Source of the DNA: Mobula birostris
Taxonomy: Eukaryota
Reading direction: 5' to 3'
Assembly: GCF_030028105.1 (NCBI RefSeq)
Contig: NC_092376.1
Span: forward strand, 170,777,613-170,841,612
DNA: 64,000 nucleotides
Position numbers: made by a program. Positions 3,001 through 6,000 of the stretch are shown here, piece by piece. Position 1 is the first letter of the stretch; each line of letters opens with the position of its first letter.

Positions 3001-6000
3001 ATAATGCTGGGCTATGACCGTCTGCATCTGAGCTTTCCTCATTTTAGTGGTTACCTTTAGTCTTAACTTTTGAGCGATTGCCAACAGCACAACCCTTGTA
3101 GCATCATCCAATGCCTCAGGAGTTGGTTCCAACAGAAACCTCTCAACACTAATGTCCATTTCTGCTGTTTTTCCACACAAGCAAATCAAAAGGGATTTTC
3201 CCCAATCAATTCAAATAAGCTCCCACACAATTTTTAGAATTGCTCCCACCAATTTGTTCATTTCCCGGATGCAGGCCCTAATTTTGTCACATACCCCATG
3301 GCGGGTTAAAGAACCATAACACCATCTCCAAGCAATCTTTGCCCCTCTCTCTCTTAATAACAAGGTGTCTGTGTTGGACACCTCTCTCTTTCTCTCTTTC
3401 TCTTTTGAAAGCACAGTTCATAGGGATAATTCAGAATCCCGTCACAGATCCAAGTGCTGATAACGGGCTCATCCCGAGTTCAGTTCGAGCCTGATCATTG
3501 GATGGTAAATGTCACCACCCACTCTGAATCTCATTGGTCTGTTTCTCACAGTTGAGGCGGGACCACGGTGGACTGTGGAGGGCAGTGATGTCACCCTCAG
3601 CTGTACCATCTCCAGACTCCCAGATACCGTCAGTCTCCACTGGAAACCAGTGGGCTCATCCCAGCAGAACAGGAGAAACACTGATCAGATCCGGCTCAAT
3701 AACATCGTCTATCTGATGGTCCGACACATTAAGTGTGATTAGATATTAATGAGGCTCTATTGTCATTGGTGGCTCAAGTGATAGTGCTTTGGGAGAACAG
3801 GGAAGACTGGTACAATGTTGTGCTGGTGCACCATTACCGGAGATACAAATAACTCTGAATCAGTTCCATAGCTGGGATATTGTCTGATCCCTTTTCCCTT
3901 TGTTGTACACAATATTCTCAGCCAACTCTTAACACCAAAAGTTTGAAGGATAGTTTGTAAACTAAACTAACCAGGTTATGTATCTAACAAAGGACCTTGG
4001 ACACAGTTATTTCTGTACCGTGTGTCTATCAGCAGGCAGCAGATCCACAGTGGACTGTAGACTGTGGCCAAGTGTCCTCATGCATAAATAGCAATGTTCA
4101 AAAGGAACAACACACACAAAATGCTGGAGAAACTCAGAAGGTCAGACAGCTTCTATGGAGGGAAATAAAGAGTGGATGTTTTGGGCTGAGACCCTTCATC
4201 GGGATTGGAAACAAAAGGGAAGAAGTCAGAGTAAGGTGGTGTGGGAAGTTGTTAAACGTACAATCTGGCAGGTGATAGGTGAGACTAGGTTCGGGCGGTG
4301 GAGTGGGGGTAAACTGGATGGGTGAGGGATGGGGGATGAAATAAGAAGATGCAAGTTGATTGGTGGAAGAGAATAAAGGATGAAGAAGAAGGAAGGTGAC
4401 AAGAAAGGACAGTGGGTCATGGAAGAAAGGGAGGGAAGTGGAATACTAGAGTGAGGTGATGGGCAGGTGGGCAGGTGAGGAGAGAGAATAGATGAGAGGA
4501 GAACCAGAATTGGAAGTAGAAAAGGAGAGTGGGGGGTGGGGGAGAGAAATTACCAGAAGTTAGAAAAATGGATGTTCATGCCATGAGGACGGAATATGAG
4601 GTGTTGCTTCTCCAACCTGTGTGTTGGCCTCATTCTAGCAGTAATTGTTGCAGACCGCAGTTGGTTTGGATTGGCAATAACATCTCCTCCATGATCTCCA
4701 TCAGCACAGGTGCACCACAAGGCTGTGTGCTTAGTCCCTTGTCCCATACTTTCCACTTTACACTTATGACTGTGTGGCTGAACACAGCTTCGATGCCATA
4801 CTCAAGTTTGCTGACAACATCACTGTCATATGCTGAATCAAACGTGGAGATGAGTCAGCATATGTATAGGAGGGTGATTGAAAATCTGGCTGAGTGTTGC
4901 CATAACAATAACTTCTTTACTCAACGTCAGCAAGACCAAAGTGATGATTATTGTCTTCAAGAGGAGGAAATCAGAGGTCCATAAACCAGTCCTCATTGGA
5001 GGATCAGACATGAAGAGTGTCAGCATCTTTAAATCTGTCAGTGAAATTATGATGGAGAACCTACCTGAGCCCAGCTCGTAAATGTAATTATGAAGAAAAC
5101 ACAACAGTGCTTCTTCTTCCTGAGGAGTTTGTGAAGATTCGGCATGACATCTAAAACCTTGACACACATCTATAGATATGTATATTGACTGGCTGCATCA
5201 CAGCCTGTTATGGAAACACTCATGCCCTTGAACAGAAAATCCTACATAAAGTAGGTAAAAAGTGCTCAATGGGTAAGGGCCTTCCACCACTGAGCACATC
5301 TACACAGGAAGTTAGTGTCAGAAAGAAATATCCACGATCAGGGACCACCACCACCCCAGTCATGCTCTCTTGTCACTGCTGCCGTCAGGAAGAAGATGCA
5401 GGAATCTAAGGACTCATAGAACCAGGTTCAGATACAGTTATTGCCCTTCAACCGTCAGGCTCTTGAACCACTGGGGATAACTTTACTCAATTTCACATGC
5501 CCCATCATTGAAATGTACTCACAACTAAGAGACTTACTTTCATGTTCTCATCATCTCATGCTTTTGATATTTATTTCTTATTTTTTATTGTTATTATTAT
5601 TATTATTATTTATTTCTGTATTTGCATAGTTTGTTGCCTTTTGCAAAATTTTCAAACATCCAAGTTAGTGTGGTCTTTCATTGATTCTACTATGGTTATT
5701 AATCTATGAAGGATTTATTGAGTATGTCTACAAGAAAATGAATCTCAGCATTGTATATGCTGGCATATATGTATTGTGATAATAAATTTACTTTGAATTT
5801 TGAACCCTCTGTAAAAGTTGCTACTCAAGTCCCTTTTAATTCTTTCCTCTGTTATCATAGATCTATGTCCTCTAGATTTAAACTCCCCTACCCTGAAGAA
5901 AGTACAAAGTCCATAAGACCATTAAGTATCGGAGTAAAATCAGCCTATTCAACTCATTGAGCTCCATTGTTCTATCATGGCTGATTTATGATCCATGTTA

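What the first reader, a model, noticed from the sequence alone, without database searches (positions are those of the whole stretch)
3470..3731. Orphan paralogous Ig exon: eight consecutive codons replaced beside a 99%-identical core
Compared with 62355..62615, the upstream intron differs at 8/82 nt. The first 29 exon nt differ at 11 positions and change eight consecutive residues (AGPRWTVE vs TSSQQPLL). The next 113 nt differ at one silent site. Coding divergence far above the flanking intron, next to a near-identical block, suggests diversifying selection at the D1-D2 hinge/A strand, a gene-conversion tract, or both (inference). The copy breaks off mid-exon. It shows this gene belongs to a tandem, birth-and-death family.
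Basis: partly seen in the sequence, partly recalled or inferred. Interest (0 to 1): 0.68.

Follow-up and report, generated by a model that had tools for sequence, protein, structure and literature searches.

The report
Dead partial copy of Ig exon
A broken, non-functional duplicate of one immunoglobulin-domain exon lies 59 kb upstream of the intact receptor gene it came from; it is an ordinary gene-duplication relic, except that eight neighbouring codons were all replaced.

Summary
Window 3470-3735 is a DNA-level copy (90.3% over 267 columns, E 6e-96) of the intron tail, splice acceptor and first two thirds of the D2 exon at 62437-62700.

The copy is a pseudo-exon. It lacks the F and G strands, the second cysteine and the donor site. 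A TAG follows at 3740, transposons surround it, and no partner exons are nearby.

The parent gene has four phase-1 Ig exons. It is probably a CD4/LAG-3-family member of a non-mammalian vertebrate.

Silent divergence is uniform: intron 0.098 and synonymous 0.084. The near-identical core therefore needs no gene conversion. The excess is purely amino-acid-changing and sits in eight A-strand codons, where 7 of 8 first and 1 of 8 third codon positions differ. That nominally favours protein-level selection.

A rival remains. 15 of 17 bases of the copy's version recur 482 nt downstream. This could be a templated patch or a third relic.

The direction of change cannot be told from two sequences. Interest is low to moderate.

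The parts
3470..3551 (+). Copied intron tail of the pseudo-exon. It has a polypyrimidine tract and an AG acceptor at 3550-3551.
   Evidence: 8 of 82 bases differ from 62355-62436. No similarity continues upstream of 3470: 390 of 2000 shuffles reach the observed score.
3552..3735 (+). Truncated copy of the D2 exon (pseudo-exon). It covers the A to E strand part only. It lacks the F and G strands, the second cysteine and the donor.
   Evidence: Pfam Ig_3 scores only 22.5 bits, below the 30-bit cut-off, over residues 4-42.
3557..3580 (+). Eight consecutive replaced codons (AGPRWTVE here, TSSQQPLL in the intact exon). They lie just before the GSDVTLSC B-strand motif.
Evidence: 7 are at first, 3 at second and 1 at third codon positions. 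pN is 0.594 and pS is 0.079.
3740..3742 (+). In-frame TAG, two codons after similarity ends.
   Evidence: The translation ends ...VRHIKCD*.
4045..4061 (+). Near-copy (15 of 17 bases) of 3563-3579, the copy's version of the diverged block. Its origin is unexplained.
   Evidence: It is the only other match with 3 or fewer mismatches in 64 kb. Shuffles expect 0.13 per window.
4083..4225 (+). Dispersed repeat that bounds the unique DNA downstream of the pseudo-exon.
   Evidence: Other copies lie at 55043-55183, 21389-21491, 16669-16750 and 58015-58135, with a weak one at 62224-62305.
1..1450 (-). Retroelement pol fragments (integrase 803-1450, reverse transcriptase 1-366) to the left of the pseudo-exon.
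   Evidence: Pfam Integrase_H2C2 3e-20, rve 3e-12 and RVT_1 1.7e-10.
54519..54851 (+). D1 exon of the intact gene. It is a single exon, phase 1 at both ends, with no cysteines.
   Evidence: Splice sites were read. It has no Pfam, PDB or Atlas match.
56499..56876 (+). D1 pseudo-exon plus its downstream intron, inside intron 1 of the intact gene.
   Evidence: 66% identity to 54588-54894 over 324 columns. nhmmer gives E 1.4e-24 over 54588-55007. It has stops and frameshifts, and a GTGAGT donor is kept at 56768.
62355..62436 (+). Intron tail and acceptor of the intact D2 exon.
62437..62700 (+). Intact D2 exon (C-type Ig domain), the parent or sister of the pseudo-exon.
   Evidence: Pfam Ig_3 9.7e-09 and C1-set 1.5e-06, both above their cut-offs. 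The donor GTAAGT starts at 62701.
63268..63606 (+). D3 exon (V-like).
   Evidence: Pfam V-set is weak: E 0.0013, 19.3 bits, below the cut-off. Splice sites were read.
63685..63945 (+). D4 exon (C-type Ig domain) with W-T-C in the F strand.
   Evidence: Pfam Ig_3 3.5e-07. phmmer aligns it to D4 of solved LAG-3 chains (E 5e-05), with W-T-C on W-Q-C.

Best explanation
Window 3470-3735 is a dead, partial genomic duplicate (a pseudo-exon) of the second Ig-domain exon of a four-Ig-exon receptor gene. That gene's exons lie at 54.5-63.9 kb on the same strand. It is probably a CD4/LAG-3-family gene of a non-mammalian vertebrate.

Shown: a DNA segment holding the end of intron 1, the acceptor and the exon was duplicated, because intron sequence was copied.

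Inferred: the copy later lost the last third of the exon and its donor, and transposon insertions stranded it. It has no function now.

Silent divergence of about 9% is even across intron and exon. One duplication event, without later homogenisation, therefore accounts for the near-identical core. The core is simply the part where amino-acid changes were not tolerated or did not happen.

The eight replaced codons encode the A strand at the very start of D2. Their changes fall on first and second codon positions and spare third positions. My preferred reading is that they arose under selection for amino-acid change, while the gene that carried them was still functional. Which lineage changed cannot be told here.

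My confidence in the pseudo-exon part is about 0.9. My confidence in the selection part is about 0.4.
For: The intron and acceptor are copied, so this is not a retro-copy.

Signs that the copy is dead:
- It is truncated, with a stop following.
- The other exons have no relic copies near it. tblastn of the D1, D3 and D4 translations gave nothing below E 0.05 in 1-54000 apart from the D2 copy itself. nhmmer of D1, D3 and D4 agreed.
- It is flanked by retroelement ORFs and dispersed repeats.

Silent divergence: intron 8 of 82; synonymous 3.5 of 41.7; block 0.5 of 6.3; rest 3 of 35. Fisher's test of intron against synonymous gives P 1.0.

Non-synonymous divergence: block 10.5 of 17.7; rest 3 of 115.

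Codon-position skew in the block:
- 7 of 8 first positions differ and 1 of 8 third positions. The hypergeometric P is 0.006, or 0.018 for any phase.
- Fisher's test of third against first plus second positions gives P 0.033.
- With 11 random hits, all 8 codons were replaced in 2.2-2.8% of simulations, and 7 or more first-position hits occurred in 0.4-0.5%.

Gene family:
- Four exons, all phase 1, in V-like, C, V-like, C order.
- D4 aligns to D4 of solved LAG-3, with its WxC motif in register.
- D1 has no internal intron, as reported for shark CD4 and LAG-3 (PMC10768021, section 3.2).
Against: - Only two sequences and about 60 codons were compared, and the block was picked post hoc.
- There is no outgroup, so the lineage and direction of change are unknown.
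- 15 of 17 bases of the copy's block recur at 4045-4061. A templated copy would explain 7 of the 8 differences inside 3563-3579 without selection.
- If the copy had been neutral since birth, zero replacements in the core's 86 non-synonymous sites would be somewhat unlikely (P 0.018). That could equally mean recent conversion of the core.
- The A strand of D2 is not a known ligand site.
- Family assignment is incomplete. D2 has Y-Q-C, not WxC. D1 matches nothing. The cytoplasmic exons lie outside the window.
- Both single-sequence structure models were uninformative.
Confidence: 0.55

Rival explanations
1. The eight-codon block is a templated patch. A short stretch was copied in one event between the exon copy and a site 482 nt downstream (4045-4061), by ectopic short-tract repair or template switching. 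The cluster would then be mutational, not selective.
For: - 3563-3579 and 4045-4061 share 15 of 17 bases on the same strand.
- This is the only other match with 3 or fewer mismatches in the 64 kb window. Shuffles expect 0.13 per window.
- The intact gene's version has no second match.
- The local alignment score is reached by 8 of 2000 shuffles.
- 7 of the 8 differences inside 3563-3579 agree with the 4045 site.
- The stretch is a quasi-palindrome, with arms 3563-3569 and 3572-3578.
- Template switching as a source of mutation clusters is described in PMC5453318. I saw only the search listing and the start of its abstract.
Against: - The direction of copying is unknown. Exon to downstream site would explain nothing about the block.
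- A scan for a reverse-complement source near either copy, the classical template-switch signature, found nothing longer than 11 bases with 1 mismatch.
- It leaves 4 of the 11 differences unexplained, as well as the first-codon-position skew.
- nhmmer rates the match only E 1.7 window-wide.
Confidence: 0.25
2. The pair is a gene-conversion mosaic. An old duplicate was partly homogenised with the living exon. The core is a recent tract, and the block either escaped conversion or came from a third, more distant paralogue.
For: - The 104-base identical run is too long if all sites are treated alike: 62 of 20000 permutations reach it, block excluded.
- Zero replacements in the core is unlikely for a copy that was neutral from birth (P 0.018).
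- An older duplication layer exists in the locus. D1 and its pseudo-exon are 66% identical.
- The block is 62% identical (18 of 29).
- After the break there is possibly weak similarity of 68% (28 of 41), reached by 11 of 2000 shuffles.
Against: - Silent sites show no tract. Synonymous divergence in the core is 1 of 25 against an expected 2.4 (P 0.32). Exon synonymous and intron divergence are equal.
- In the block, third positions are nearly unchanged (1 of 8). Old or foreign sequence should differ there at least as much as at first positions.
- No third paralogue is present in the window.
Confidence: 0.15
3. The copy is an assembly or haplotype artefact, not a real second locus.
For: None from the sequence. 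Raw reads were not available.
Against: - About 10% divergence is far above what collapsed or duplicated haplotypes would give.
- The flanks on both sides are unrelated to the intact gene's flanks.
- There are no N runs anywhere in the window.
Confidence: 0.03

Closest known systems
Fragments of incomplete CD4 genes beside the intact CD4 gene of the small-spotted catshark (Takizawa et al. 2023, PMC10768021; section 3.2 and the Figure 1 legend, read)
   Same: Both are partial, highly similar copies of a CD4/LAG-3-family gene lying close to a single intact gene. The parent gene's D1 is encoded by one exon without an internal intron.
   Different: - The paper gives no details ('not shown'). It says the largest parts lie downstream in reverse orientation, whereas this piece lies 59 kb upstream in the same orientation.
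- I could not establish the species.
- I could not tell whether the gene is CD4 or LAG-3, because the tail exons are outside the window.
- The paper's supplements were closed and may hold sequences that would settle this.
Birth-and-death evolution of tandem Ig-receptor families such as KIR and LILR (recalled general knowledge, from no call)
   Same: Both involve DNA-level duplication of Ig exons, decay of copies into pseudo-exons, and local bursts of amino-acid change.
   Different: The window shows one intact gene and two relic exon pieces, not an array of paralogous genes.
Short template-switch mutation clusters (PMC5453318, PMC9435742; search listing and start of abstracts only)
   Same: Both show a tight cluster of substitutions with a matching sequence nearby and a quasi-palindromic product.
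   Different: The nearby match is a direct copy 482 nt away, not an inverted one. No reverse-complement source was found.
Recent duplication of D1 plus D2 within zebrafish CD4-2.2 (mentioned in PMC10768021, section 3.4; passage seen)
   Same: Both are domain-level duplications inside the CD4 family.
   Different: The zebrafish case gives an expressed five-domain protein. Here the extra D1 and D2 pieces are broken.

Membership tests
CD4/LAG-3 family (for the parent gene) | Ectodomain of four Ig-like domains in V, C2, V, C2 order | tested here: inconclusive
   - Four phase-1 exons lie in order.
- D2 and D4 pass the Pfam Ig_3 cut-off.
- D3 matches V-set only below the cut-off.
- D1 matches nothing.
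- The D1 model had pLDDT 45.5 and was unusable.
- The window ends after D4, so further Ig exons cannot be excluded.
CD4/LAG-3 family (for the parent gene) | WxC motif in the F strand of both D2 and D4 (PMC10768021, sections 3.1 and 3.6) | tested here: inconclusive
   D4 has W-T-C. It aligns with W-Q-C of LAG-3 D4 and W-G-C of LAG-3 D2. D2 has Y-Q-C, so the motif is not met there.
CD4/LAG-3 family (for the parent gene) | Cytoplasmic tail motif: Cx(C/H) for CD4, or (F/Y)xxL(D/E) for LAG-3 | not testable with these tools
   The transmembrane and tail exons lie beyond base 64000.
CD4/LAG-3 family (for the parent gene) | Sequence similarity to solved family members | tested here: met
   The D4 exon aligns over residues 7-97 to D4 of LAG-3 chains 9bf9_D (E 5e-05), 8so3_D and 7tzg_C (E 1.7e-04). 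They rank 4th to 8th among generic Ig hits. D2 gave only generic Ig hits in the 60 shown of 815.
CD4/LAG-3 family (for the parent gene) | No intron inside the D1 coding sequence (shark state; bony vertebrates have one) | tested here: met
   D1 is one 333-base exon, 54519-54851. The rule comes from PMC10768021, sections 3.1 and 3.2.
Processed (retro-copied) pseudogene | Lacks introns, because it derives from mRNA | tested here: not met
   82 bases of intron and the acceptor are copied along with the exon.
Gene-conversion tract | Silent-site identity inside the tract clearly above that of the flanks | tested here: not met
   The core has 1 of 25 synonymous sites changed, against 0.094 per site elsewhere (P 0.32). 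Exon synonymous divergence is 0.084 and intron divergence is 0.098. Power is low.
Positively selected codon cluster | Non-synonymous rate above synonymous rate, shown on a phylogeny | tested here: inconclusive
   In a pairwise comparison only, the block has pN 0.594 and pS 0.079. The codon-position skew has P 0.006-0.03. No phylogeny or outgroup was available.
Tandem birth-and-death multigene family | Several paralogous genes in an array, some intact and some decayed | tested here: inconclusive
   The window holds one intact gene, one D2 pseudo-exon and one D1 pseudo-exon. There is no second gene in the 64 kb.
Short template-switch cluster | The cluster equals the reverse complement of a nearby stretch | tested here: not met
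   The best reverse-complement match near either copy was 11 bases with 1 mismatch. A direct near-copy does exist.

The most novel reading that the evidence does not exclude
The start of D2, which continues the last strand of D1 in CD4/LAG-3-type receptors, is a target of diversifying selection among paralogues in this lineage. Relic exon pieces such as this one, and the 4045 trace, would then be stored alternative versions. They could still be copied into the living gene by short-tract conversion, much as pseudo-V segments diversify antibody genes in birds.
Probability: 0.06. Interest if true: 0.6.

Novelty: new member of a known kind. Interest (0 to 1): 0.27.

Why it matters
Taken alone, this is a routine relic of segmental duplication in a transposon-rich region.

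It matters a little for annotation. The piece should not be called an exon or a gene.

It also matters for the history of this receptor locus. It adds a second layer of local duplication, about 9% silent divergence, to an older one (the D1 pseudo-exon, 66% identity).

If the parent gene is a cartilaginous-fish CD4 or LAG-3, the relic preserves an alternative version of the D1-D2 junction. With an outgroup, that version would show whether this rigid junction has been reshaped by selection in the oldest vertebrates that have these co-receptors.

Tried and rejected
- **D2 structure.** The single-sequence AlphaFold2 model of the D2 exon had pLDDT 70.0 and pTM 0.57. Foldseek against the PDB gave 0 matches at E 0.001 or better, and the top hits were not Ig domains. 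I used the model only for a rough strand map and place no weight on it.
- **D1 structure.** The D1 model had pLDDT 45.5 and was not searched.
- **D1 matches.** The ESM Atlas look-up of D1 gave no usable hit. PDB phmmer of D1 gave 0 hits at E 10.
- **Upstream extension.** A lenient BLAST stretched the similarity upstream to 3426. I rejected this, because 390 of 2000 shuffles reach the flank's score.
- **Break as an internal deletion.** Similarity of 3742-3782 to 62730-62770 is 28 of 41, reached by 11 of 2000 shuffles. I kept this as a possibility only.
- **The 4045 site as a third exon start.** Similarity beyond the 17 bases is at chance level: nucleotides 4172 of 5000 shuffles, protein 3613 of 5000.
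- **Compensated frameshift as the cause of the eight changed residues.** I rejected this by eye from the ungapped 18 of 29 match.
- **CpG decay as the cause of the block.** Only 1 of its 11 differences lies in a CpG, against 5 of 14 elsewhere.
- **Intron mini-cluster.** 4 of the 8 intron differences fall within 8 bases. This is not significant (7666 of 100000 permutations).
- **D2 plus D4 profile for a PDB search.** MAFFT misaligned the F strands, so I did not search with it.
- **Leader exon.** None was found in 53800-54520.
- **RNA genes.** There were no tRNA genes and no Rfam family at gathering score.
- **Vertebrate genomes.** No collection of vertebrate genomes was on hand. I did not use the genome-contig scan, because it holds bacteria and archaea only. 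The closed protein searches and collections were not used.
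Full report
**Scope.** The window has 64000 bases and no N. I do not take it for human.
- It is packed with retroelement ORFs, including an integrase and reverse transcriptases.
- Its Ig gene has a one-exon D1, a state reported for sharks and not for bony vertebrates (PMC10768021).
- Its best match to solved human or mouse proteins is distant.

The species was not determined, because no vertebrate genome collection was on hand. The gene model was searched and folded exon by exon. 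The joined protein was never built, searched or folded.

**Observation.** Self-BLAST pairs 3470-3735 with 62355-62621 on the same strand, 58885 bases apart. Identity is 90.262% over 267 columns, E 5.8e-96.

| Segment | Differences | Note |
|---|---|---|
| 3470-3551 (intron tail) | 8 of 82 | ends in the AG acceptor |
| 3552-3580 | 11 of 29 | the replaced block |
| 3581-3693 | 1 of 113 | 3589, silent |

After 3731 there is a 1-base gap, and similarity ends at 3735. In frame, AGPRWTVE faces TSSQQPLL.

The intact exon continues 79 bases to its GTAAGT donor at 62701. The copy instead reads into a TAG at 3740.

The clustering is not chance. A window with 11 or more differences arose in 7 of 20000 permutations. 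An identical run of 104 or more arose in 0 of 20000.

**What the parent is.** Four exons lie in order on the plus strand, each with phase-1 borders:
- D1 54519-54851
- D2 62437-62700
- D3 63268-63606
- D4 63685-63945

Their database matches are as follows:
- D2 and D4 pass Pfam Ig_3. D3 is V-set-like below the cut-off. D1 matches nothing.
- D1 also has no PDB hit at E 10 and no usable Atlas hit.
- D4 aligns over nearly its whole length to D4 of solved LAG-3 chains (E 5e-05 to 1.7e-04). Its W-T-C falls on their W-Q-C.
- D2 and D4 share register and 9 of 21 residues around the B strand.

Takizawa et al. 2023 (PMC10768021) was read as abstract, sections 3.2 and 3.6, and passages. It gives three relevant points:
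- WxC in D2 and D4 is the family's hallmark.
- Shark CD4 and LAG-3 lack an intron in D1.

The parent gene is therefore probably a CD4/LAG-3-family member; I put this at about 0.6. Two gaps remain. D2 here has Y-Q-C, and the tail exons that separate CD4 from LAG-3 lie outside the window.

**What the copy is.** It carries intron and acceptor, so it is a DNA-level duplicate, not a retro-copy. It cannot fold as an Ig domain and cannot be spliced onward, because it lacks four things:
- the F strand
- the G strand
- the second cysteine
- a donor site

The other exons have no relic copy in 1-54000.

Its surroundings are these:
- To its left is a minus-strand retroelement, with integrase at 803-1450 and reverse transcriptase at 1-366.
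- A further long ORF series runs up to about 3158.
- No similarity to the parent continues beyond 3470.
- To its right are 347 bases of unique DNA, then a dispersed repeat at 4083-4225 and a LINE fragment.

After the break there is a weak collinear match to the parent's intron 2: 3742-3782 against 62730-62770, 28 of 41, reached by 11 of 2000 shuffles. If this is real, the break is a deletion of about 108 bases covering the exon end and the donor. I leave this open.

**The pattern of differences.** I split the differences by kind with Nei-Gojobori counts over 59 codons.

| Part | Synonymous | Non-synonymous |
|---|---|---|
| Whole exon part | 3.5 of 41.7 (0.084) | 13.5 of 135.3 (0.100) |
| Eight-codon block | 0.5 of 6.3 | 10.5 of 17.7 (0.59) |
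| Rest of the exon | 3 of 35 | 3 of 115 (0.026) |

Synonymous divergence matches the intron's 8 of 82 (0.098). Silent divergence is therefore even along the whole copy.

The near-identical core has 1 synonymous change in 25 sites, where 2.4 are expected (P 0.32). This removes the need for a gene-conversion tract.

All of the heterogeneity is in amino-acid-changing sites. The core does look too clean if the copy had drifted neutrally since birth: zero replacements in 86 sites has P 0.018. This means one of two things:
- The copy belonged to a working gene for part of its history.
- The core was refreshed by conversion.

The data cannot separate these.

**The eight-codon block.**
- 7 of its 8 first codon positions differ, 3 of its second and 1 of its third. 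The hypergeometric P is 0.006 for this phase and 0.018 for any phase.
- Fisher's test of third against first plus second positions gives P 0.033.
- With 11 random hits in these 24 bases, all eight residues changed in 2.2-2.8% of simulations.
- CpG decay explains at most 1 of the 11 differences.

Old or foreign sequence, as in escaped conversion or a distant donor, should differ at third positions at least as much. The pattern therefore nominally favours selection on the protein.

The block sits directly before the GSDVTLSC B-strand motif, in the A strand at the start of D2. This follows from the Pfam and PDB alignments and from ordinary Ig-domain architecture, so it is an inference. In CD4 and LAG-3 this stretch continues the last strand of D1 as one rigid strand, and the hinge is between D2 and D3 (PMC10768021, section 3.6).

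- Bases 3563-3579 of the copy's block recur at 4045-4061 with 15 of 17 identical, on the same strand.
- This is the only other match with 3 or fewer mismatches in the window. Shuffles expect 0.13 per window.
- The parent's version has no second match.
- 7 of the 8 differences inside 3563-3579 agree with that site.
- The stretch is a quasi-palindrome, with folding energy -3.1 against -2.0 kcal/mol for the parent's version.

This could be a templated patch, in either direction, or the trace of a third exon start. Three results count against it being more than that:
- Similarity beyond the 17 bases is at chance level.
- nhmmer gives only E 1.7 window-wide.
- No reverse-complement source of the classical template-switch kind was found.

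The coincidence needed under each reading is of similar size, roughly 0.002 to 0.03. I prefer selection only slightly.

**Other local duplications.**
- Intron 1 of the parent holds a D1 pseudo-exon. 56499-56816 matches 54588-54894 at 66% over 324 columns. nhmmer gives E 1.4e-24 over 54588-55007, with stops and frameshifts and a donor kept.
- The first 140 bases or so of intron 2 are repeated in tandem 260 bases downstream.

The locus has therefore been duplicated piecemeal more than once. This fits a birth-and-death history, but the window shows only one living gene.

**Verdict.** The finding is a real, truncated pseudo-exon, and an ordinary kind of relic. The gene-conversion idea is unnecessary. 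The selection idea is weakly supported and has a concrete rival. The family claim is plausible but goes beyond the window. Polarising the changes with other copies and orthologues would settle the matter.

Noticed in passing
window 56499-56876 (+): A degenerate copy of the D1 exon and the start of its downstream intron lies inside intron 1 of the intact gene. It is 66% identical, has stops and frameshifts, and keeps a GTGAGT donor. Its reading keeps a Y-T-C F-strand motif that the living D1, which has no cysteines, lacks.
   Followed up: partly
window 62698-62840 and 62958-63101 (+): The start of intron 2, from the GTAAGT donor onward, is duplicated in tandem about 260 bases downstream (77-85% identity). 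This creates a second donor-like site without an exon.
   Followed up: partly
window 4045-4067 (+): The near-copy of the diverged block holds a 7-base inverted repeat and the heptamer CACAGTG. From recall only, this equals the consensus V(D)J recombination-signal heptamer. No nonamer or spacer was looked for.
   Followed up: no
window 54519-54851 (+): The D1 exon encodes a 111-residue domain with neither of the canonical Ig cysteines. It has no match in Pfam, the PDB or the ESM Atlas.
   Followed up: partly
window 63607-63684: The intron between D3 and D4 is only 78 bases, whereas intron 1 is about 7.6 kb and full of repeats.
   Followed up: no
window 38364-40723 and 48177-50548 (+): Two copies of a reverse-transcriptase-bearing LINE are 89% identical over 2.4 kb, the youngest repeat pair in the window. 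Several older copies (about 72%) lie in both orientations elsewhere.
   Followed up: no
window 1-1450 (-): On the minus strand an integrase ORF lies upstream of a reverse-transcriptase ORF. This order is unusual for gypsy-type elements. From recall, it is known for one deuterostome gypsy-like group. It could also be two nested elements.
   Followed up: no
window 3704-3706 vs 62589-62591: The intact exon has an N-N-T glycosylation sequon where the pseudo-exon reads N-N-I.
   Followed up: no
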